From: Oxalobacteraceae bacterium UBA6018 | GTDB taxonomy: Bacteria > Pseudomonadota > Gammaproteobacteria > Burkholderiales > Burkholderiaceae_D | Assembly: GCA_002428015.1 (NCBI GenBank) | Contig: DIZW01000042.1 | Span: 222 to 64,221 of the forward strand | DNA length: 64,000 nt | Direction: 5' to 3' | Position numbers and translations under genes: made by a program | The notes under the pieces: model-generated | Seen by the model: the letters and a program-made list of their open reading frames with translations, nothing else | Told to the model about the DNA's origin: nothing | Database searches by the model: none | In this document: positions 8,436-61,329 of the stretch, one piece after another | Layout: each line of letters opens with the position of its first letter | Position numbering within the stretch: the first letter of the stretch is position 1

Positions 8436-8449
8436 TGTAATCGATAACA
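8436..8449. promoter_or_regulatory. LacI-type operator (TGTAATCGATAACA) upstream of the lacI-family gene
   Basis: One mismatch to the palindrome TGTTATCGATAACA, 37 bp before ATG 8486; the motif recurs at five other intergenic sites. Confidence 0.7.
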
Positions 8450-8485: not shown

Positions 8486-9535
8486 ATGCGTAGCGAATCT
8501 AAGCAAAACGAGCGCGGGGCGGGAGGTGCAACCGTATGGGACGTGGCGAGCAAGGCCGGGGTTTCCGCGATGACGGTGTCGCGGGTAATCAATGGCAACG
8601 CCAGTGTCAGCGAAAAAACCCGTGAAAAGGTCAACCGCGCGATCGCCGAGTTAAATTATCAAGTCAACGTGGCTGCACGCGCGGCGCGCATCGGAACCCT
8701 GCGCGTGGGCCTGCTGTACAGTAACCCGAGCGCCGCCTACCTTAGCGCATTCCTGGTCGGTGCGTTGGGTGAATGCGGGAAGACTGGCGCTCACCTTATT
8801 CTCGAAAACTGCGACAACATCCGCAGCCAGCGCAAGGCCATTGAGCGCCTGGTCGCCGACGGCGCCGACGGTATCCTGGTGCCGCCGCCGCTATGTGATT
8901 CCAAGAGCGCGATCAAGCAGTTGTCCGAGCTGGGAATTCCCACGCTCGCGGTCGCGACGGCGCGCCCATCGCCCCAGATGTCGGCGGTGCGCATCGACGA
9001 TTATGAGGGCGCAATGACGATGACCAATTATTTGTTGTCGCTCGGGCACACGGATATCGGATTCATCAAGGGAGACCCCGAGCACACGCCCGCCCAGTTG
9101 CGCTATCAGGCTTTTATTGACGGCATGCGTCAGGCTGGGCATAACGTTCCAGCCGAGCGCGTCGCACAGGGCATGTTCACCTACCGATCAGGCCTGACGG
9201 CGGCGCGGGAGCTGCTGTCGCGCCCGAATCGTCCAACCGCGATCTTTGCCAGTAACGATGATATGGCGGCCGCTGTGGTGGCGGTCGCCCATGGCATGCA
9301 TTTGCACGTGCCGGACGACGTCGCGGTCTGTGGATTTGATGACACCCCTGTCGCCACGACGGTCTGGCCCGAACTGACCACCATTCATCAGCCGATCACT
9401 GAAATGGCGCGCAGTGCGGTAGCCCAACTGATCGAGCATATTCGCGCACGCCGTTCGGGACAGTCATATATGCCCCAGCATCGGTTGATGCCGTACACGC
9501 TCGTGGTGCGCGAGTCGACCACCGGGCAAGAGTGA
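8486..9535 (+). CDS. LacI-family transcriptional regulator
   Basis: ATVWDVASKAGVSAMTVSRVIN HTH, hinge YQVNVAARA, sugar-binding domain with PTAIFASNDDMA and VAVCGFDD. Confidence 0.95.
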   Translation: MRSESKQNERGAGGATVWDVASKAGVSAMTVSRVINGNASVSEKTREKVNRAIAELNYQVNVAARAARIGTLRVGLLYSNPSAAYLSAFLVGALGECGKTGAHLILENCDNIRSQRKAIERLVADGADGILVPPPLCDSKSAIKQLSELGIPTLAVATARPSPQMSAVRIDDYEGAMTMTNYLLSLGHTDIGFIKGDPEHTPAQLRYQAFIDGMRQAGHNVPAERVAQGMFTYRSGLTAARELLSRPNRPTAIFASNDDMAAAVVAVAHGMHLHVPDDVAVCGFDDTPVATTVWPELTTIHQPITEMARSAVAQLIEHIRARRSGQSYMPQHRLMPYTLVVRESTTGQE

Positions 9536-9558
9536 GGGGCGCTGCGCCACCGTCGCGC

Positions 9559-10374
9559 TTATACCGGGAGTATGCCCTGTAGCGACGAAATGCGCTCCGG
9601 GGACGACCAGGTGCCGATCACGCGAGCGCTGGTGTCAAACTCCAGAAGTTGCTGCCCTTTGTGGCCATTGTCGGCCCCGTGTCCCTGCCAGTTCGCGACC
9701 AACAGGTGGCCGTTTGCCAGGTGCTGGAAGGTCGCGTAGAAAAACGGTGCTACGCGCGCTGACACCTGGGCCGCGGCGCCGAAGCGCCGCAGGACGTTCC
9801 CAGCCCGGTCGAACAAGACCAGGAAGGCGCCGTAACCTGCCGAAACGAGTGTCGTGCCGTCCTGGAGCCGTTCCGCCTTCCATGCGTGTTCTAGGCCGTC
9901 GACGGCGAATCGGCGAATGGCTGTCAACTCTGGCGTCGTTTCGAGGATATGGTCGTTGGTGCACAATAGGTAGCTGCCATCGGGCGTGACGCGCATGAGG
10001 CGGACGTAGTCGCCGTCACGTCGTGCCACGCCCGAAAGGCGCGCGGCGGCGTCCAAAGTCAGCACGTTGACGCCTCCCGACCCATCAAGGTTGAAGCCGG
10101 TTACCAGCGTGCTGCCATCCGCGCGGCGGTGGGCCGATGTGACTTCGGTCCAGCGGTCGCACATTGCCAGCACGCGACCCGTTTCAATCTCCAGCTCGAA
10201 GAAGCCGCGATCAAAACCGACCAGCACGCGGTGGCGGTCCAGGCGCTGCAGATCCCGGGCCAGGGGATAGTCGGACAAGTCCAGCGTCCAATGAAAAGTA
10301 TTGGTGCTCGTGTCGATCAAGGACATCTGTTGACGTCCCTCGTCGATGCCTAAAAAACGGCAAGAAATATTCAT
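9559..10374 (-). CDS. Hypothetical cytoplasmic beta-propeller-like protein
   Basis: 271 aa with repeated short beta-strand units (HAWKAERLQDGTTLVS, FQHLANGHLLVANWQGHG, QLLEFD); no signal peptide. Confidence 0.7.
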   Translation of the reverse strand: MNISCRFLGIDEGRQQMSLIDTSTNTFHWTLDLSDYPLARDLQRLDRHRVLVGFDRGFFELEIETGRVLAMCDRWTEVTSAHRRADGSTLVTGFNLDGSGGVNVLTLDAAARLSGVARRDGDYVRLMRVTPDGSYLLCTNDHILETTPELTAIRRFAVDGLEHAWKAERLQDGTTLVSAGYGAFLVLFDRAGNVLRRFGAAAQVSARVAPFFYATFQHLANGHLLVANWQGHGADNGHKGQQLLEFDTSARVIGTWSSPERISSLQGILPV

Positions 10375-10459
10375 GATTTTTATGAAGGAATGTTGGCATG
10401 GGCTAGCCGGGCACCTCGCGCCGGCAACTTATCCGAATGCTAGCACGTTTTGTGCGGCA

Positions 10460-10473
10460 AGTTATCGATATCT
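10460..10473. promoter_or_regulatory. Weaker LacI-type operator (AGTTATCGATATCT) upstream of the 10374 gene
   Basis: Core GTTATCGATA intact, three mismatches to the consensus. Confidence 0.5.
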
Positions 10474-10550
10474 CAATGGCGCTTCGAAGATCGATTTCTT
10501 GCTGAGTTGCTGCCTGGATGCGTATATTTAGCCCAAAAGAAAGGAAAGCA

Positions 10551-10585
10551 TTGACTTTGTCCAGGGATATTTGTTATCGTTAACT
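10551..10585 (+). promoter_or_regulatory. sigma70 promoter (TTGACT-N18-TATCGT, extended -10 TG) overlapped by operator TGTTATCGTTAACT (10572-10585)
   Basis: -35 at 10551-10556, TG at 10572-10573, -10 at 10575-10580; same TTGACT-N18 layout as the dgoK promoter. Confidence 0.65.
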
Positions 10586-10586
10586 T

Positions 10587-10730
10587 GTTGATGCGATGCC
10601 GGATGTACGGGCATTTCATCGGCCTTAGGATGGCAGCTCGCGCCGCAGTCCTAATGGCGTTGGTCTCTTCCGCGGGGTGGGGTCTCCTCCCGCGTTCGAC
10701 CCGCTCCCTCAGACGGGGCGGGTTTTTTTT
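10587..10730 (+). ncRNA. Candidate small regulatory RNA (~145 nt) with duplicated anti-SD seeds
   Basis: Lies between two minus-strand genes yet has a plus-strand promoter and a plus-strand terminator. Contains stem-loops (ATGCC/GGCAT, TTAGGA/TCCTAA) and the repeats GGTCTCTTCC (10662-10671) and GGTCTCCTCC (10681-10690). No RBS-led ORF is apparent. Confidence 0.6.
10699..10730 (+). terminator. Rho-independent terminator of the candidate sRNA
   Basis: Stem ACCCGCTCC (10699-10707) / GGGGCGGGT (10715-10723) running into T8 on the plus strand only. Confidence 0.8.
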
Positions 10731-10862
10731 CGCCGCTGCGGCGCGCGTCATGCTCATGAGAAGGGGCGTACCGCCGGGCCGCCGTTCTGCCGCCATTGTT
10801 CAAGCCCGTGGCCGCGCCGCAGCGCTCATCGGGGACGAGCCGGCTCCAGCGGACCGTGCTGG

Positions 10863-12512
10863 TCAGTAGGGTCCGGCGCCGGGAGCGGTCAGCCGGAACG
10901 CGAGTACGTCGAGCCAGGATCCCGCGTGCTTGCCGACGCTGAACAGGCCGACCTGGGCGCCGACCCAGGTGCCGCGCGTCACCGGGAAGGGGGCGCCAGC
11001 CGGCTTGAACGTCTTGCCATCGACGCTATACGCGAAGTTGACGAAGGCGTTTTCGTTCATATGCGCGCGCAGCGTCAGCTCCGGCGGCGCCGGCGACAGG
11101 ACCACCGTCGACTGCTCCTTGCAGCGCGCGGCGAACGGGCCACACACCGTCGCAATGAGCTCGGTCACGCCATGCGCCCGGCGCAAGCCTACCCAGGCAT
11201 ACTGCATGCCGTTGACGATCAAGCCGGCACGGTCGCCATCGGTCGCGTGTTCCAGGCGCAGCCGCGTGGTGGCGAGAAAGCGCGCCGCTGGCGCCTTCTG
11301 TGCCAGGATGGCCGGTGAGGCGCGCACGTAATCGTCGGCATCCGCGACGACCTGGGTGTACAGGCGCAAGGTTCCGGGCCGGGCGCTGAGCGAATACCAG
11401 CCCGGCTGCGGATTGCCGCTCCATTGCCACTGCAAGCCCAGATTGGCCGCACGGAAGTCGTCGCTGGTAGGCGGGGTCGCCGTGGCTTGGCCCTGTACCG
11501 GCTTTTCATAGGTAATGACGGGCTCGCCCGTGCCTGGCTTGCGGCCCGGCTGGCCGATGAGTGGCCACCCATCCTTCCATTGCATGGGCTCCAGGTGGAC
11601 CACGCGGCCATAAGGTCCTTTGTCCTGGAAGTGCAGGAACCAGTCCCGTCCGTCGGGCGCGGAGACCCAGGCGCCCTGGTGCGGCCCGTTGACCGGCGTG
11701 TCGCCCTGGTCCAGCACATCGCGCGCCTCGTAGGGGCCGGTCAGCGCGCGTGAACGGAACACGGCTTGCCAGCCCTGTTCGACGCCGCCGGCGGGCGCGA
11801 AGACGTAGTAATAGCCGTTCGCCTTGTAGATCTTCGGGCCCTCCACCGTGTGGTAGCCGGGGTAGTCCGCCCCGCGGATGATGTCCACGCCCGCGTCGTC
11901 GAGCATGCGCGTCGCGCGTGTGTCCATGCGACGCAGGGTGACCAGGTTGTTCTTGCCGGCGCGGCTGAAGGCCCAGGCGTGCACCAGATAAGCCTGGCCG
12001 TCGTCGTCCCACAGGGGGGCTGGATCGATCAGGCCGCGGCCCGCGAGCAGAAGGCGCGGTGGGCTCCACGGGCCCGCGAAATGCTCGGCCTCGACCACGT
12101 AGATACCGGCGTCGGGGTCCGGATAGAAGATGTAGAAGCGCCCGTCATGGTAGCGCAGGCAGGGTGCCCATACTCCCTTTCCGTACTGCGGCGTGGCGAA
12201 CCTTTCCTCCGGCAGTATTCTTGGCAGGGCATGGCCGACCAGCGTCCAGTTGACCAGGTCCGGGGATTCCAGCAGGGGCAGGCCAGGGACGTTGGTGAAG
12301 CTGGAGGCCGTCATGTAGAAGCGGTCGCCAACCCGGATCGCGTCCGGGTCCGAATAGTCCGCATGCAGGACGGGATTGCGGTAGCGGCCATCGCCCAGGT
12401 CGGCGACCCAGGGCGCGTCCGCCGGCGCCGGCGACTGCGCCTGCGCGACCGGGGCGACGACGGCCGACAAGGGAGCGGCCATCGCGGCCGCGAGGACGAT
12501 CCGTATGCTCAC
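10863..12512 (-). CDS. Secreted GH43 glycoside hydrolase (beta-xylosidase-like) with C-terminal beta-sandwich
   Basis: Signal peptide; YRNPVLHADYSDPD, GVWAP, LIDPAPLWDDDG, VEGPKIYK, GPHQGAWV, FHFQDKG-like motifs; GTG start overlapping the GH88 stop. Confidence 0.9.
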   Translation of the reverse strand: MSIRIVLAAAMAAPLSAVVAPVAQAQSPAPADAPWVADLGDGRYRNPVLHADYSDPDAIRVGDRFYMTASSFTNVPGLPLLESPDLVNWTLVGHALPRILPEERFATPQYGKGVWAPCLRYHDGRFYIFYPDPDAGIYVVEAEHFAGPWSPPRLLLAGRGLIDPAPLWDDDGQAYLVHAWAFSRAGKNNLVTLRRMDTRATRMLDDAGVDIIRGADYPGYHTVEGPKIYKANGYYYVFAPAGGVEQGWQAVFRSRALTGPYEARDVLDQGDTPVNGPHQGAWVSAPDGRDWFLHFQDKGPYGRVVHLEPMQWKDGWPLIGQPGRKPGTGEPVITYEKPVQGQATATPPTSDDFRAANLGLQWQWSGNPQPGWYSLSARPGTLRLYTQVVADADDYVRASPAILAQKAPAARFLATTRLRLEHATDGDRAGLIVNGMQYAWVGLRRAHGVTELIATVCGPFAARCKEQSTVVLSPAPPELTLRAHMNENAFVNFAYSVDGKTFKPAGAPFPVTRGTWVGAQVGLFSVGKHAGSWLDVLAFRLTAPGAGPY

Positions 12513-13727: not shown

Positions 13728-14993
13728 TCATTGGGTGAGGTTGGCGCCGTCGGAGGCGATCGCGCCTGCGCGGTCCCGCTTTGGCGGCGTTGGATGTTCC
13801 GGCGGGGTGGGCGCGAGCACGAAGGCCGATACGACTAGGCAGAATGCGCCGGTCAAGGCGAGCAGGAGATAGGTGCTGGGGAAGCCGATCCTGTCGTAGC
13901 CGTAACCGACCAGCGGGGACAGCAGGGACAGGCCGAGCGAGTGTCCAAAGCTGACGCCGACCATGTACACGGTCGACGTCAGGCGCTTGTCGAAGTGATA
14001 GGCGACGTAGCGGAAGATCGACACGACCAGGATCGGCAGTTCGAGCGAATGCAGCAGCTTCATCGCGGAGATCCAGATCGGCCCGCCCGGCAGGCTGGAT
14101 CCGCCGATCCTTAGCATCATGATCGTACCGGCGAGCAGCAGGCCGTTTTTAGCGCCGATGCGGCGCACCACCAAGGGCGCCACGAACAGGCCGCCAGCCT
14201 CCAGAAAAATTTGCGCCGAGCTCAAGTCGCCAAACATGACGGCCCCGGTCTCCTTGTCCGGAAACTGCGCCGCGAAATACCGCGAGAACTGCGAATCGTA
14301 GACGAGGTAGAGGTTGGTCACCGTCAGGATGAAGGCCATGAAGCGCCAGAACGTGGGACTGCGCAGCAGGAGAAGGGCGTCCGCGAGGCGGGGACCGGCC
14401 GCGCTGGCTGCCGTCGTCTCATGCGCGGGAAGGCGCCAGACGGCCAGCATGGCGACGAGCACGAGGCCCGCCCCCGAGGCCAGCATGAAGTTGATATGGG
14501 GATTCAGATTGTACAAGCGGCCCGTCATGAACGCGGCGCTCGCGAAGCCGAGCGAGCCCCACATGCGTACCCGGCTATACTCGAAACCGTAGGCGCGGCC
14601 AATGCGGTCGACGTAGGACTCGACGGCGTAGCTGCCGGCGATGAACGTAACGCCAAGAAAGGCGCCGCCCAGCAGTGCCCCCAGTACCAGATGCGATTTC
14701 AGCAGGGGCGCATAGGCGTACACCAGGAACGGTCCGGACAGCATGCACAGTCCGGCGACCGTCCACAAGACGTTCTTGCGCATCCCGACCTTGTCGGACA
14801 GGTAGCCGTACGCGGGCTGGGAGCACATCGCCGCGACAAAGTTGGTGGACAGCACGATACCGGTTTGCGCGCCCGACAGGTGCAGGTCGGACCCCAGCCA
14901 GAGCACCAGCATCGACATGGTCATGGCCTGGCCAAAGAAGTACACGTACGCGAACGTGCAGAGGAAGCGGAAATGCGATTGCCGGGAGCTCAT
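13728..14993 (-). CDS. Oligosaccharide:H+ symporter (LacY/RafB-type MFS)
   Basis: YGYLSDKVGMRKNVLW, FEYSRVRMWGSLG, KLLHSLELP motifs; start trimmed to ATG 14993. Confidence 0.9.
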   Translation of the reverse strand: MSSRQSHFRFLCTFAYVYFFGQAMTMSMLVLWLGSDLHLSGAQTGIVLSTNFVAAMCSQPAYGYLSDKVGMRKNVLWTVAGLCMLSGPFLVYAYAPLLKSHLVLGALLGGAFLGVTFIAGSYAVESYVDRIGRAYGFEYSRVRMWGSLGFASAAFMTGRLYNLNPHINFMLASGAGLVLVAMLAVWRLPAHETTAASAAGPRLADALLLLRSPTFWRFMAFILTVTNLYLVYDSQFSRYFAAQFPDKETGAVMFGDLSSAQIFLEAGGLFVAPLVVRRIGAKNGLLLAGTIMMLRIGGSSLPGGPIWISAMKLLHSLELPILVVSIFRYVAYHFDKRLTSTVYMVGVSFGHSLGLSLLSPLVGYGYDRIGFPSTYLLLALTGAFCLVVSAFVLAPTPPEHPTPPKRDRAGAIASDGANLTQ

Positions 14994-15139
14994 CGTGCGC
15001 CCCGCGGGGCGCCGCCATCGGATCGATGTGTTGCGGCCCCGCCACGCGGCGGGACCTTTGAAATAGCGAGCATGGTGTCCCCTCAAGGTGGCCGGCCGAG
15101 CCGGCGCATTGTTGTGCACGTTCCGCTCCGGAGCGTGGT

Positions 15140-15179
15140 TGTTATCGATAACCATAGCGCGCCCCCGGCGATTTGTCAA
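15140..15179 (-). promoter_or_regulatory. sigma70 promoter TTGACA-N17-TATGGT with overlapping operator TGTTATCGATAACC (15140-15153), driving permease-GH88-GH43
   Basis: Plus strand tgtcaa 15174-15179 and accata 15151-15156, 17-bp spacer; the operator covers the -10 and start region. Confidence 0.8.
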
Positions 15180-22065: not shown

Positions 22066-22095
22066 TTGACTTTTCTGTTATCGATAACCTATCAT
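22066..22095 (+). promoter_or_regulatory. dgoK promoter (TTGACT-N18-TATCAT) with operator TGTTATCGATAACC (22076-22089) in the spacer
   Basis: -35 at 22066-22071, -10 at 22090-22095. Confidence 0.75.
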
Positions 22096-29800: not shown

Positions 29801-30763
29801 CGAGGCGAACGGCTTCTTGAAGTCGAGGCCGGTGCGGGTCTTGATCTGGATGCCGCCGCCGAGGGCGCCTTCGGTCATGTCCGCGGTCGAGCCCTTGATC
29901 ACGTCCACGCTCTTGATCAGGTCGGCGGACAACTGGCGGAACTCGACGGCGCGGCCATCGCCGCCGCCGGACATGTCGCTGCCGCCGGCGGACTGGACGG
30001 CCTGGCCGTCGAGTTCGACCCGGGTCAGTTCGGGGCCGTTGCCGCGCACGGAGGCGGTGACGCCCTCGCCGAAGTCGCCCCGGTCCAGCGCGACGCCGGC
30101 CATGCGCGAGATCGCCTCGCCGACGTTACGGTCGGGCAGGGAGCCCACGTCCTCGGCGACGATCGAATCGATCGCGGTGGCGGCGTTCTTCTTGCGCTCG
30201 ATACTCGATTGCTGGGACGCGCGCGTGCCCACCACCATCACCTGCGTCACCGGGCCGGTACTGCCCGGCGCCGCCTGGACCTGCTGATCCGTGCCCTGTG
30301 CCTGCGCCAATGGCGCGCCCATCAACATGACCGCTGCCGATACCGCACAACAGGTCGCTTTTCGTTGGCTGGGAATATCTGATTGTTTCATCGTCTCCTC
30401 CGTCATCTTTGAATCATTCGACGCGTTTTCTCGCTCGCCCGGGGGCCGCTTCAAAATCACGACGGTGCCGCTAGTGCTGACCCTACCGACCAGGTTGGTA
30501 CCTTTAAGCAATCGGTCGACTGCCTCGGAGATGACGAACGTGCCCACCAGTGCATTGGCCCTCACGCCATCCAGAACATCGGCCGCGGCCAGGACGTTAA
30601 CGCCGGCCTGTTTCGCAAACTCCGCAATGGAATGCGTCGCTGCGCCCGCCGGTATGTTGAATGCTTGGGGGACTTCCTGGGAATGCGCGGCGCCCGCGTG
30701 AGCTGCCATGCCCACGGCCAGGACGATGCCCGCCTTCCCGGTATATTCATGCAACTGGGTCAT
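26819..30763 (-). CDS. TonB-dependent receptor with N-terminal STN signalling domain; internal in-frame start at 30391
   Basis: Signal peptide, STN-like AFNIPAG..SIAEFAKQAG..LLKGT, TonB box VMVVGTR, plug DSIVAEDVGSLPDRNVGE..VIKG, C-terminal RRIMVGVNFRTL. Confidence 0.93.
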   Translation of the reverse strand: MTQLHEYTGKAGIVLAVGMAAHAGAAHSQEVPQAFNIPAGAATHSIAEFAKQAGVNVLAAADVLDGVRANALVGTFVISEAVDRLLKGTNLVGRVSTSGTVVILKRPPGERENASNDSKMTEETMKQSDIPSQRKATCCAVSAAVMLMGAPLAQAQGTDQQVQAAPGSTGPVTQVMVVGTRASQQSSIERKKNAATAIDSIVAEDVGSLPDRNVGEAISRMAGVALDRGDFGEGVTASVRGNGPELTRVELDGQAVQSAGGSDMSGGGDGRAVEFRQLSADLIKSVDVIKGSTADMTEGALGGGIQIKTRTGLDFKKPFASLRMAASQGSLNKKWEPDANLILANKFMNGRLGLLLNASTTTLDNEGHLAEVAGGGNQGYYRLFDFDNSPQKTFSFQPGTVNRADASTATPILQSPLVGGGSFNSATPFDLITRSAAAQSKADCQAAFPALAAAQLNAISASSRSAAQSQRSNELSTCLNQWNDYTPSGPRYVVRREIDRRQNLDLRADFKVNDELTVYAKGSYNKRHDDINSLSFSMGNFSVKNGVANVEPGSAVVDADHHLLKYTFDNTNSNGVAKTGQSHGIGVTTARYLQLGGAFRRGGLTSEFFIGDARSNFKKGVKDLTLNDYYGSGTLQVLPNGLWGYTFPGFNPTDNSDLSRFAKLYPVGASAAVVPTTYTSTRAPAYTAAQQNAVTSSPNLTWVPTMFFNEERTAKIDVTWATPDSVPFFKRFKTGYNLRDTRNDNWNVNNGGYVLRNPVGTFGTAGYVAPLVMPSPTLRSTMYGCADTPGSLAAGGNACVYGWIPKGDIRKAMDGATVLTMDQFASLLKQTMTLKATPTQFFYGAKGRPSGLIDNWTQIDVEKLFGLVNIPNTDFNCVKQCTANDGKVYDQPAQHLKERSDAFYLMGDFGLDHIPFTDRALPFGWDVEGNVGVRYVRTRVHGTGMMSFTSITKTANFNPDIPDAPGGTATTTVQQSTQTDAKTTDILPSLNLATWVLPDQLVLRYSVAKTVARPPVSRLLASGSCTYNEVLAGQGDDPQKCSGTVGNPALKAQKNVNQNLSLEYYPNKDTMVSIAAFRQQGKIGPAIAEGVSRSPLFANTNLVDPATGVSLGQALFDYSTWMNGATTGRKGLEFSTKTAFTFLPWLLRYTGFDANYTKMHSATTTVNIVDLLTGTPLPPQNESNYTYNLALWYDDGRLSARIAVQAVDSYFNCIAACGKSTSMLNYPNVGGGRTGMPYNPGSPNFTDATRFIDGKVSYKWTPQIEVFIEGRNLGNVTTSHSQRQFTPFSDGTPNLLDYAYAGRRIMVGVNFRTL

Positions 30764-30819
30764 GTCTCTGTCTCCTGACCTAACCTGATTTTCGGAACTA
30801 TGCTGACCCGTTATAAGTA

Positions 30820-45824: not shown

Positions 45825-46759
45825 CGGCCGTTCGCTCCATCCGGTTTGACGATGCGGTTGAGGATCAGCGTCACGCAGAAGATGATCAGGGTGAGCACCA
45901 TCGCCAGCGCGCAGGCGAGGCCCATGGTGTTGTAGTTTTTGAAGGCAAAGTGATAGATCAGCAGGGTGAAGGTCAAGGTGGCGTTCTCCGGGCCGCCTTC
46001 GCCGCCGGACAGGATGAACGCCTGGTCGAACACCTGGAAGCAGCCGATCACGCCCATCGTGAGCACGTAGCAGGTGATAGGCGTGAGCTGGGGCACGCTG
46101 ATCTCCCAGTGCTTGCGGAAGGGCCCGGCGCCGTCGAGCACGGCCGCTTCGTACAGCGCCTGGGGGACTTCCTGCAGGCCGGCCATGTAGACCACCAGGA
46201 AGCCCGGGATGGTCGAATACACGTTCATCAGCATGATGATGCCGAGGGCCCATTTCGGGTCGGTCAGGAAATGGATGGTGACGCCGAGATGGTCTTGCAG
46301 CAGATGCACCACCACCCCGTTATTATTGAACAGCCACATGAAGATCATCGTCATCGCCGCCGATGACGTCAGCGTGGGGAGAAACAGCAGCGTCAGGAAG
46401 GCGCGCTTGAACTTGATCCGCCCGTTCAGCAGGCAGGCGAGGAACAGGGCGATTCCCGTCTGCAGGGGGACGACCACCATCACGTAGTGGAAGGTGTTGC
46501 TGCAGGCGGCCCAGAATTTGTCGTCTTCGACCAGGTAGCGCAGGTTGCGCAGGCCGATGAAGCTGTGGCGGCCCGACACGATGTCCATTTTCTGGAGCGA
46601 GACGAACAGCGCGTAGGCGATCGGCAGCAGCGTGAAGATGCCAACCAGTAGCAGGGTCGGCAGCAGGAAAGCGTAGGCGCTGATGGTGACGCCGCGTGGC
46701 AGGCGCCATGTGCGCGCCATGCCGGCGCGCAAAGGCGGGGCGGACGGGGCGCGCGTCAT
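45821..46759 (-). CDS. Carbohydrate ABC transporter permease (MalF type)
   Basis: FIGLRN, LYEAAVLDGA, FQVFDQ. Confidence 0.93.
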   Translation of the reverse strand: MTRAPSAPPLRAGMARTWRLPRGVTISAYAFLLPTLLLVGIFTLLPIAYALFVSLQKMDIVSGRHSFIGLRNLRYLVEDDKFWAACSNTFHYVMVVVPLQTGIALFLACLLNGRIKFKRAFLTLLFLPTLTSSAAMTMIFMWLFNNNGVVVHLLQDHLGVTIHFLTDPKWALGIIMLMNVYSTIPGFLVVYMAGLQEVPQALYEAAVLDGAGPFRKHWEISVPQLTPITCYVLTMGVIGCFQVFDQAFILSGGEGGPENATLTFTLLIYHFAFKNYNTMGLACALAMVLTLIIFCVTLILNRIVKPDGANGR

Positions 46760-60184: not shown

Positions 60185-60208
60185 GGTCTCCTGGCCTGTG
60201 CGGCACGA

Positions 60209-61285: not shown

Positions 61286-61329
61286 ATCGTCTCCTTAATG
61301 CGTGAGAAGGTGGAAGTCCGGGCCGAGGA

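What the first reader, a model, noticed from the sequence alone, without database searches (positions are those of the whole stretch)
10551..10730. Candidate repressor-controlled sRNA with twin anti-Shine-Dalgarno seeds inside the glycan locus
Both flanking genes are on the minus strand, yet the spacer holds a plus-strand TTGACT-N18-TG-TATCGT promoter overlapped by the regulon operator and a plus-strand-only terminator about 145 nt later. Between them are two hairpins and a direct repeat, GGTCTCTTCC / GGTCTCCTCC. This resembles transporter-repressing sRNAs such as AbcR1/2. The seed is complementary to RBSs in this window: 9 nt at the internal TonB-receptor start (30393-30401), 8 nt at the citrate/malate transporter (60185-60192), 7 nt at 30770-30776 and at 61289-61295. 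It could be a sugar-induced post-transcriptional switch that silences competing uptake genes. Anti-SD matches are easy to obtain by chance, so the targets are hypotheses.
Basis: partly seen in the sequence, partly recalled or inferred. Interest (0 to 1): 0.88.

Follow-up and report, generated by a model that had tools for sequence, protein, structure and literature searches.

The report
Sugar-repressor-controlled anti-ribosome-site small RNA candidate
A gap between two sugar-degrading genes of a Massilia soil bacterium probably holds a roughly 145-base regulatory RNA gene, switched by the locus's own LacI-type repressor and built like the known "toxic"/double-hairpin small RNAs of Betaproteobacteria, but it is found in this genome only and its expression could not be checked.

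Summary
These are a plus-strand promoter (TTGACT-18-TG-TATCGT), a LacI-type operator over its -10, hairpins, the GGTCTCYTCC direct repeat and a strong plus-strand-only terminator. The promoter-operator layout matches three other promoters of the same local regulon.

The 3' half copies the design of Betaproteobacteria toxic/double-hairpin sRNAs (Rfam RF02278). It has an unpaired CU-rich seed, a hairpin with a second CU-rich motif and a terminator. Its GUCUCCUCC 9-mer is identical to the 5' seed of four of the six to eight canonical RF02278 copies in this genome. It still scores only 26 bits (cut-off 50) and carries an extra 75-nt 5' domain, so it is a variant and not a proven member.

No homologue was found in 35 other species of the genus or in metagenome contigs. 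Two other Massilia genomes have analogous units (operator, CU-rich motif, terminator) beside the same 271-aa gene.

The ribosome-binding-site matches in the window are no more than chance. The ORF shows no coding signal.

Verdict: a plausible, lineage-specific variant of a known sRNA kind. The scan has found similar anti-Shine-Dalgarno sRNAs on other DNA before.

The parts
10551..10580 (+). Sigma-70-type promoter TTGACT-N18-TATCGT. The TG at 10572-10573 acts as an extended -10. The predicted transcription start is about 10587-10589.
   Evidence: the only promoter-like site in 9500-12000. It has the same -35 hexamer and 18-nt spacing as the regulon promoter at 22066-22095.
10572..10585 (.). LacI-type operator TGTTATCGTTAACT, overlapping the -10 and the start site of the candidate sRNA promoter.
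   Evidence: The same palindrome sits at 8436 (upstream of lacI), 15140, 21977 and 22076, overlapping or abutting promoters.
10460..10473 (.). Weaker operator-like site AGTTATCGATATCT (3 mismatches), 86 nt upstream of the 271-aa ORF. It probably serves the divergent minus-strand gene.
   Evidence: By analogy, operators lie close upstream of orthologues of the 271-aa gene.
10587..10731 (+). Predicted ~145-nt non-coding transcript.
   Evidence: Promoter and terminator. Fold. No coding signal. No Rfam family at gathering score.
10589..10658 (+). 5' domain of two hairpins (10589-10621 and 10622-10658). It has no counterpart in canonical RF02278 RNAs.
   Evidence: inverted repeat I1. No Rfam hit, even at E<=10.
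10662..10671 (+). Seed 1, GGUCUCUUCC, in the single-stranded linker. This is the accessible anti-Shine-Dalgarno motif.
   Evidence: Opening cost 2.1 kcal/mol. Direct repeat D1.
10671..10694 (+). Hairpin 3. Its loop and 3' arm carry seed 2, GGUCUCCUCC (10681-10690).
   Evidence: Opening cost is 10.7 kcal/mol for the whole seed and 4.1 for GUCUCCU. The 9-mer GUCUCCUCC is identical to the 5' seed of four canonical tsRNA copies of this genome.
10698..10731 (+). Intrinsic terminator: 10-bp G+C-rich stem plus U8. It has no U-tract on the minus strand.
   Evidence: The arm TTCG-CCCGCTCCC resembles the terminator of tsRNA copy C87.
8486..9535 (+). LacI-family repressor gene, the presumed regulator of the operator set.
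   Evidence: Pfam LacI plus Peripla_BP_3. Operator at 8436-8449 just upstream.
9559..10374 (-). 271-aa gene of unknown function, divergent from the candidate sRNA. Its orthologues are the anchor of the two analogous units in other Massilia.
10863..12512 (-). GH43 glycoside hydrolase, convergent with the candidate sRNA. It is the last gene of the lacY-like/GH88-like/GH43 operon, whose promoter at 15179-15151 carries an operator.

Best explanation
The spacer holds an independent gene for a ~145-nt non-coding RNA.

Transcription (inferred): it starts about 10587 from a sigma-70 promoter whose extended -10 lies inside a LacI-type operator. The RNA should therefore be made only when the local LacI-family repressor (8486-9535) is released by the inducing sugar, together with the lacY-like/GH88-like/GH43 operon. 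It should end at the strong terminator at 10698-10731.

Structure: the RNA has a lineage-specific 5' domain of two hairpins. Its 3' module follows the plan of Betaproteobacteria toxic/double-hairpin sRNAs. That module has an unpaired CU-rich seed (GGUCUCUUCC), a hairpin presenting a second seed (GGUCUCCUCC), a short linker, and a terminator with a U8 tail suited to Hfq.

Action (inferred, by analogy with NcS27 and its siblings): the seeds pair with GGAGGAGAC-type Shine-Dalgarno regions and lower translation of a set of mRNAs. This would add a sugar-specific input to a seed the cell already uses in six to eight constitutive family copies.

Shown here: the sequence anatomy, the regulon-typical operator placement, seed identity with canonical copies, and the lack of coding signal.

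Not shown: transcription, repression by LacI, Hfq dependence, and any particular target.
For: - The only promoter-like site and the only terminator-like site in 2.5 kb lie on the same strand, 145 nt apart, opposite to both flanking genes.
- Strong T7+ terminators are rare: 217 in 12 Mb of strand.
- The operator is real and clustered in this locus.
- Its overlap with the -10 and start site mirrors the lacY-operon promoter at 15179-15151 and the promoters at 22019-21990 and 22066-22095.
- RF02278 is the best Rfam hit: 26.2 bits, ninth best in a genome with 6 copies above cut-off and 2 just below.
- GTCTCCTCC occurs only 28 times on both strands of the genome. Four occurrences are canonical tsRNA seeds and one is this element.
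- A model built from the genome's own tsRNAs ranks this site first in the window. It also ranks the two positional analogues first in their loci: 21, 15.2 and 13.5 bits, against a background maximum of 12.1 bits (apart from one canonical tsRNA at 60.8 bits) in 95 kb of other loci.
- There is weak sequence similarity to tsRNA copy C87 (z 3.3, p 0.004 before correction for 8 comparisons).
- Seed 1 is accessible, with an opening cost of 2.1 kcal/mol.
- The genome encodes Hfq.
- The ORF has no coding signal and no relatives.
- Literature: double-hairpin RNAs carry two unpaired CU-rich stretches that cover ribosome-binding sites. NcS27 has a longer precursor that is processed, and it affects carbon-source use (PMC5688073, PMC10987360).
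Against: - No homologue of the 146-nt RNA or of the 488-nt spacer in 35 other species of the genus, by BLASTN, by a single-sequence covariance model or by an operator-seed-terminator pattern.
- No paralogue in the own genome.
- No true match to the twin-seed pattern in metagenome contigs. So there is no covariation and no evidence of purifying selection.
- The Rfam score is well under the cut-off. Plain terminators preceded by a GUCUCC-like word score 23-24 bits.
- The operator is the most degenerate of the five main sites (2 mismatches). Its own TATCG core supplies the -10, so only the -35 is independent evidence for a promoter.
- The minus strand folds at least as significantly (z -5.3).
- Seed 2 is largely base-paired.
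- No expression data.
Confidence: 0.55

Rival explanations
1. This is a relic or a fortuitous assembly. A decayed copy of a tsRNA gene (seed plus terminator) happens to lie next to an operator that really serves the divergent 271-aa gene. The plus-strand 'promoter' is a by-product of the operator's TATCG core. Any transcript has no function.
For: - No conservation in any searched relative or in metagenomes.
- tsRNA genes come and go in these genomes. A canonical copy sits beside lacI in one Duganella locus and is missing in its close relative.
- In L058 the operator lies in the spacer of a promoter that points at the 271-aa gene.
- The RF02278 score is in the range of plain terminators.
Against: - A 5/6 -35 hexamer at 18 nt with an extended -10, identical in hexamer and spacing to a bona fide regulon promoter.
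- The terminator, both seeds and the hairpin between them are intact.
- A separate, nearer operator-like site (10460) is available for the 271-aa gene.
- Two other Massilia genomes also keep an orphan terminator and a CU-rich motif at the same relative place.
Confidence: 0.22
2. The transcript is real but acts in cis. It is fully complementary to read-through RNA from the lacY-like/GH88-like/GH43 operon into the 271-aa gene. By convergent transcription or duplex-directed cleavage it would uncouple or tune expression of the 271-aa gene, rather than acting on distant ribosome-binding sites.
For: - No minus-strand intrinsic terminator lies between GH43 and the 271-aa gene, so read-through across the spacer is likely.
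- Both promoters carry the same operator and would fire together.
- The minus strand of the region is also highly structured.
- In Duganella and Pseudoduganella the 271-aa gene directly follows GH88 in one operon.
Against: - It does not explain why the RNA carries two copies of the very seed used by the trans-acting tsRNA family.
- It does not explain why L037 and L058, which have other upstream neighbours, keep similar units.
- The two roles are not mutually exclusive.
Confidence: 0.13
3. The region encodes a small protein, from the 10585/10591-10869 ORF on a nearly leaderless mRNA.
For: An ATG at 10591 lies 3-4 nt from the predicted start site, and the frame stays open to 10869.
Against: - GC by codon position is 0.68/0.62/0.71, unlike real genes of the locus.
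- No Pfam family.
- No translated match in 40 relatives.
- The frame runs through the terminator, so a terminated transcript would have no stop codon.
Confidence: 0.03

Closest known systems
Betaproteobacteria toxic small RNA / double-hairpin RNAs (Rfam RF02278; B. cenocepacia ncS03, ncS05, NcS27, ncS62)
   Same: - Same host class, and six to eight canonical copies in this very genome.
- Same plan: an unpaired CU-rich seed, a hairpin with a second CU-rich stretch, a short linker, then a terminator with a U-tail.
- Identical 9-mer seed GUCUCCUCC.
- NcS27 also has a longer primary form, and it affects carbon-source utilisation (PMC5688073, PMC10987360).
   Different: - 26.2 bits against a cut-off of 50.
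- The seed is internal, behind a 75-nt two-hairpin 5' domain.
- The first hairpin is G+C-rich and unrelated in sequence.
- The promoter lacks the family's ...GCAGCATAAT... motif and instead carries a LacI-type operator.
- It is a single copy and is not conserved in congeners.
AbcR1/AbcR2 and MmgR (alphaproteobacterial CU-rich sRNAs; MmgR = Rfam RF00519)
   Same: Anti-Shine-Dalgarno CU-rich motifs in unpaired regions, and repression of transporter or metabolic mRNAs (own knowledge). MmgR gives a weak hit of 19.1 bits.
   Different: They come from a different bacterial class. The RF00519 score is far below its cut-off of 41, and no AbcR-type family appears even at E<=10. The resemblance is in mechanism only.
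Spot 42 (E. coli spf) and other sugar-responsive sRNAs under a carbohydrate regulator
   Same: An sRNA whose promoter is directly controlled by a sugar-sensing transcription factor and which represses secondary uptake and catabolic genes (own knowledge).
   Different: Spot 42 is repressed by CRP-cAMP, is conserved in enterobacteria and uses other seeds. Here the input would be a pathway-specific LacI-family repressor inside a glycan locus.
NmsR sibling sRNAs of Neisseria meningitidis
   Same: [quoted passage not shown] They are cited as structural analogues of the double-hairpin RNAs in PMC5688073.
   Different: They are tandem siblings that target TCA-cycle genes. No sequence relation was tested here.

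Membership tests
Rfam RF02278 (Betaproteobacteria toxic sRNA / double-hairpin RNA) | Covariance-model score at or above the curated gathering score (50 bits) | tested here: not met
   26.2 bits at 10681-10731. The genome-specific model R2 gives 21 bits. Canonical copies in the same genome score 51.9-64.5 bits.
Rfam RF02278 (Betaproteobacteria toxic sRNA / double-hairpin RNA) | Unpaired CU-rich seed of the type UGUCUCC(UCC), complementary to ribosome-binding sites | tested here: met
   Seed 1, GGUCUCUUCC, is unpaired (opening cost 2.1 kcal/mol). Seed 2 holds GUCUCCUCC, identical to the seed of four canonical copies.
Rfam RF02278 (Betaproteobacteria toxic sRNA / double-hairpin RNA) | Second CU-rich stretch presented by the first hairpin, followed by a terminator hairpin with a U-tail | tested here: met
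   Hairpin 10671-10694 carries GGUCUCCUCC in its loop and 3' arm. The terminator is at 10698-10731 with U8.
Rfam RF02278 (Betaproteobacteria toxic sRNA / double-hairpin RNA) | Short (~57-70 nt) RNA that starts at the seed and consists almost only of two hairpins | tested here: not met
   The predicted RNA is ~145 nt, with two extra 5' hairpins. Processing to a short form, as reported for ncS27 (PMC5688073), cannot be tested here.
Rfam RF02278 (Betaproteobacteria toxic sRNA / double-hairpin RNA) | Shared upstream promoter motif of the family copies | tested here: not met
   Most canonical copies in this genome have ...GCAGCATAAT(G/T)... (or a close variant such as GCATAAT) ending a few nt before the seed. 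The candidate has TTGACT-18-TATCGT with a LacI-type operator.
Rfam RF02278 (Betaproteobacteria toxic sRNA / double-hairpin RNA) | Expression as a discrete sRNA; growth inhibition when over-expressed | not testable with these tools
No wet-lab data.
AbcR1/2-type and MmgR-type alphaproteobacterial sRNAs | Match to the family's covariance model | tested here: not met
   RF00519 (MmgR) scores 19.1 bits against a cut-off of 41. No AbcR-type family is listed at E<=10.
LacI-family repressor regulon of this locus | Palindromic 14-bp operator with a central CG, repeated at promoters of the locus and upstream of the repressor gene | tested here: met
   TGTTATCGATAACA-type sites at 8436, 10572, 15140, 21977 and 22076. 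Five of the 19 genome-wide sites lie within 14 kb. They overlap promoters.
LacI-family repressor regulon of this locus | Binding of the repressor to the 10572 site and repression of the plus-strand promoter | not testable with these tools
   Needs a gel-shift assay, or a reporter in a lacI mutant. The site has 2 mismatches and is the weakest of the five.

The most novel reading that the evidence does not exclude
A pathway-specific LacI-family repressor directly switches a toxic/double-hairpin-type anti-Shine-Dalgarno sRNA. Arrival of one plant glycan would then both induce its own utilisation genes and dampen translation of mRNAs with GGAGGAGAC-type ribosome-binding sites, such as competing uptake systems. 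Such modules would have been recruited repeatedly next to the same operator and the 271-aa gene in separate Massilia lineages. This would be the first defined transcriptional input for this sRNA family, whose regulation the Burkholderia literature calls unknown.
Probability: 0.3. Interest if true: 0.6.

Novelty: new variant of a known kind. Interest (0 to 1): 0.4.

Why it matters
Double-hairpin or 'toxic' sRNAs are widespread in Betaproteobacteria and influence carbon-source use. What controls them is described as unknown (PMC5688073). A family-like RNA with a readable LacI-type operator over its promoter, inside a glycan-utilisation locus, would give a simple genetic handle on that question. 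The handles are the inducer, a lacI mutant and an operator mutant. They could test how a specific sugar signal is passed to global translation control.

The importance is limited for three reasons. The element is a singleton without conservation. The mechanism class is familiar, and this scan has met similar anti-Shine-Dalgarno sRNAs with Crp-type inputs elsewhere. No expression evidence is available.

Tried and rejected
- Conservation by BLASTN of the RNA and of the whole spacer: no hit in 35 congeners and no paralogue.
- Single-sequence covariance model R1: the best foreign hits (27.9 bits and lower) were gene 3' ends or coding sequence, not homologues.
- Twin-seed pattern in metagenome contigs: 111 stretches, none with a matching terminator or similarity.
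- BLASTN of the L058 analogue among 61 genomes (relatives of G077, G077 itself included): nothing credible.
- Family-wide operator-seed-terminator pattern: one search was mistyped (YTCTCY instead of GTCTCY) and failed its positive control, so it is void. The corrected pattern, run in the genus only, hit only the own genome.
- Energy-based target prediction over about 4,100 crude gene starts: the real seed performs no better than shuffled seeds, so no target list is offered.
- Enrichment of seed matches at gene starts in the window: not significant.
- Classifying 'orphan' terminators genome-wide: not usable, because my crude gene set is incomplete.
- Coding reading of 10585-10869: rejected.
- AbcR/MmgR membership: rejected.
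- tRNA or tmRNA: none in the window.

Full report
**What is in the sequence**

The 488-nt spacer 10375-10862 lies between two minus-strand genes. One is a 271-aa ORF with no Pfam family (9559-10374). The other is a GH43 glycosidase (10863-12512), the last gene of a lacY-like/GH88-like/GH43 string. A LacI-family repressor gene lies at 8486-9535.

In 9500-12000 the consensus scan finds exactly one promoter-like site and one terminator-like site, both on the plus strand:
- The promoter is TTGACT-18-TATCGT with an upstream TG, at 10551-10580.
- The terminator is a 10-bp stem with 7 G-C pairs followed by T8, at 10698-10731.

The plus-strand RNA 10586-10731 folds into four hairpins: 10589-10621, 10622-10658, 10671-10694 and the terminator. 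The energy is -66 kcal/mol, z -2.4. The direct repeat GGTCTCTTCC (10662) / GGTCTCCTCC (10681) is real, with spacing 19.

**The operator and promoter**

TGTTATCGTTAACT (10572-10585) is a two-mismatch copy of the palindrome TGTTATCGATAACA. One-mismatch copies lie at 8436 (just upstream of lacI), 15140, 21977 and 22076. A three-mismatch copy lies at 10460. Only 19 sites with two or fewer mismatches exist in the 6-Mb genome, and five of them are in this 14-kb stretch. This is therefore a local regulon.

The other sites sit in recognisable promoters:
- 15179-15151(-), TTGACA-17-TATGGT, with the operator over the -10 and start site.
- 22019-21990(-), with the operator just after the -10.
- 22066-22095(+), TTGACT-18-TATCAT, with the operator in the spacer.

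The candidate's layout is of the same style. It has the same -35 hexamer, the same 18-nt spacing and the operator over the -10 and start site.

One caveat applies. The -10 is supplied by the operator's own TATCG core, so only the -35 and the TG are independent evidence for a promoter.

**Is the promoter-terminator pairing more than chance?**

Hairpin-plus-T7 terminators are rare in this 66% G+C genome: 217 on both strands. One placed 145 nt downstream of a promoter on the same strand, opposite to both flanking genes, is unlikely by chance. I estimate a probability of roughly 0.003-0.02, depending on whether genome-wide or intergenic density is used. This is my inference.

On the minus strand the hairpin has no U-tract. 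No plus-strand gene ends nearby, so the terminator most simply ends a transcript that starts in the spacer.

**Not a protein gene**

- The ORF 10585-10869 has G+C by codon position of 0.68/0.62/0.71, against 0.69/0.51/0.85 for GH43.
- It has no Pfam match.
- It has no translated match in 40 relatives.
- It runs through the terminator.

**What it resembles**

No Rfam family reaches its gathering score in the window. At permissive thresholds the best hits all fall on 10662-10738. They are RF02278 Betaproteobacteria toxic sRNA (26.2 bits, cut-off 50), anti-hemB (19.4) and MmgR (19.1).

The own genome holds six RF02278 copies above cut-off and two just below. The candidate is the ninth hit. The canonical copies read:
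- a 5' seed, UGUCUCCUCC;
- a hairpin whose loop holds a second CU-rich stretch;
- an AUUC-type linker;
- a terminator.

The candidate's 3' 70 nt have the same order of parts. Seed 1 is in a single-stranded linker, with an opening cost of 2.1 kcal/mol. Seed 2 sits in the loop and 3' arm of a hairpin, with an opening cost of 10.7 kcal/mol for the whole seed and 4.1 for GUCUCCU. Then come UUCGA and the terminator.

The 9-mer GTCTCCTCC occurs 28 times on both strands of the genome. Four occurrences are canonical tsRNA seeds, one is the candidate, and several others are the antisense of ribosome-binding sites. The terminator arm TTCG-CCCGCTCCC and the motif CTCCTCC are shared with the C87 copy. A global alignment to that copy beats 99.6% of shuffles, which is p 0.004 before correcting for eight comparisons.

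There is a counterweight. Ordinary gene terminators preceded by a GUCUCC-like word score 23-24 bits with the same model. The covariance score alone therefore proves nothing. The candidate also has a 75-nt 5' domain and a different promoter.

I file it as working like a double-hairpin sRNA and possibly descended from one. It is not a demonstrated family member.

The literature supports the functional analogy:
- These RNAs carry two unpaired CU-rich stretches that cover ribosome-binding sites.
- ncS27 has a longer primary form that is processed.
- Over-expression of ncS27 slows growth, and NcS27 affects use of several carbon sources.
- What regulates these RNAs is stated to be unknown (PMC5688073; PMC10987360; also PMC7011215 for Herbaspirillum).

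**Conservation**

This is the weak point.
- BLASTN of the RNA and of the whole spacer finds nothing in 35 other species of the same GTDB genus, and no paralogue.
- A covariance model built from the single sequence and its fold gives only spurious hits.
- The twin-seed pattern has no true match in metagenome contigs.
- The operator-seed-terminator pattern hits only the own genome within the genus.
- A family-wide run of that pattern was mistyped and is void.

No covariation analysis is therefore possible.

**Positional analogues**

Orthologues of the 271-aa gene exist in about 30 Oxalobacteraceae genomes, and record titles name the genus of the closest ones as Massilia.

Two of them have a comparable divergent unit next to a TGTTATCGATAAC-type operator. 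They are L037 (Massilia sp. LC042) and L058 (a Massilia MAG, the same genome as G077). Each unit is a short structured stretch with a CU-rich word, ending in an orphan hairpin with T8 that points away from the gene. The CU-rich word is UGUCUCCU in a loop in L058 and CCCUCUCCUC in L037. The two share their terminator sequence, but neither aligns with the window's RNA.

A model built from the window genome's own tsRNAs ranks exactly these three places first in their sources: 21, 15.2 and 13.5 bits. In 95 kb of fourteen other loci nothing else exceeds 12.1 bits, apart from one canonical tsRNA.

On the tree of the 271-aa protein, L037 and L058 fall in one small clade. The window is the basal branch of another clade whose eight other members lack the unit. 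So the pattern is either old with losses or arose twice.

The analogy has limits. In L058 the operator lies in the spacer of a promoter that points at the 271-aa gene, and I could not find a convincing promoter for its divergent unit. The analogues are therefore suggestive support, not proof.

**Targets**

- Genome-wide, seed words of the AGGAGAC, GGAGACC or GAAGAGAC type occur at 111 of about 4,100 crude gene starts. The window's three hits are matched or exceeded by 6 of 57 comparable 64-kb bins.
- Duplex energies of the real seed region against all gene starts are no better than those of shuffled seeds.
- The seed is that of the canonical tsRNAs, so any target set would overlap theirs.
- No specific target is supported.

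**Most likely mechanism**

I put 0.55 on the following chain:
1. The LacI-family repressor occupies 10572-10585 and blocks the plus-strand promoter.
2. The inducing sugar releases it.
3. A ~145-nt RNA is made and ends at the terminator.
4. With Hfq, which is encoded in the genome, its exposed seed 1 and, after opening of hairpin 3 or processing, seed 2 pair with strong GGAGGAG(AC)-type Shine-Dalgarno regions and lower translation.

Everything after 'the repressor occupies' is inference from anatomy and from the family's literature.

**Rivals**

- A non-functional relic or chance assembly, in which the operator really serves the 271-aa gene (0.22).
- A cis-antisense or convergent-transcription role against read-through from GH43 into the 271-aa gene (0.13). 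No minus-strand terminator separates these two genes, and they are adjacent operon partners in Duganella.
- A small protein (0.03).

**Novelty and score**

The kind of element is familiar. Earlier reports of this scan describe several anti-Shine-Dalgarno sRNAs whose closest known relative is also RF02278, some with Crp-type promoters. I did not re-test those.

The new points here are the LacI-type operator on the promoter, the position inside a glycan-utilisation locus and the composite architecture. Without conservation or expression data I rate it a new variant of a known kind, interest 0.4.

Noticed in passing
G000 contigs C89:45976-46040(-) and 46218-46279(-), C130:73981-74040(+) and 182362-182426(-), C71:2332-2396(-), C65:13197-13263(+), C87:58822-58882(+), C117:25775-25837(+): The window's genome holds six canonical RF02278 toxic/double-hairpin sRNA genes above the Rfam cut-off and two just below. 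Two of them lie in tandem about 240 nt apart on C89. Most share a ...GCAGCATAAT... promoter motif ending a few nt before the UGUCUCC seed.
   Followed up: partly
L040:5285-5347 (+) (Duganella sp. CT11-25); compare L041:5100-5300: A canonical tsRNA gene (60.8 bits with the own-genome model) lies about 400 nt upstream of, and divergent from, the lacI orthologue of this regulon. It is about 145 nt beyond the conserved AGTTATCGATAACA operator. The close relative Duganella hordei keeps the operator but has unrelated sequence in place of the sRNA gene. tsRNA genes therefore appear to be gained and lost quickly near this regulon.
   Followed up: partly
window 10326-10374: The ATG at 10374 of the 271-aa ORF has no Shine-Dalgarno sequence upstream. 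The in-frame ATG at 10326 (codon 17) is preceded by GAGGGA, so the real start may be 16 codons downstream.
   Followed up: no
window 13728-15179: The listed TTG start of the LacY-like ORF (15179) coincides with the -35 of the operator-bearing promoter at 15179-15151, and the Pfam LacY match begins at residue 66. The real start is probably well downstream, and this promoter probably drives the lacY-like/GH88-like/GH43 operon.
   Followed up: no
L035-L045 and L054 (Duganella / Pseudoduganella loci): In L038-L041, L043-L045 and L054 the 271-aa gene follows GH88 directly in the same orientation with no spacer. In L037 it is followed co-directionally by the lacI orthologue. The gene therefore belongs to the same pathway. 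The window's GH43 and its 488-nt spacer between GH88 and the 271-aa gene have no counterpart in these loci, so they may be an insertion, although L035 also carries GH43 and GH88 in another arrangement.
   Followed up: partly
G000 C16:15176(+) and C16:15280(+): Two nearly identical hairpin+T7 terminators, about 100 nt apart (…AACUGCAUGGUUU(C/G)(G/C)GCCAUGCAGUU), turned up among terminators with no co-oriented gene upstream in my crude gene set. They may mark a tandem pair of small genes.
   Followed up: no
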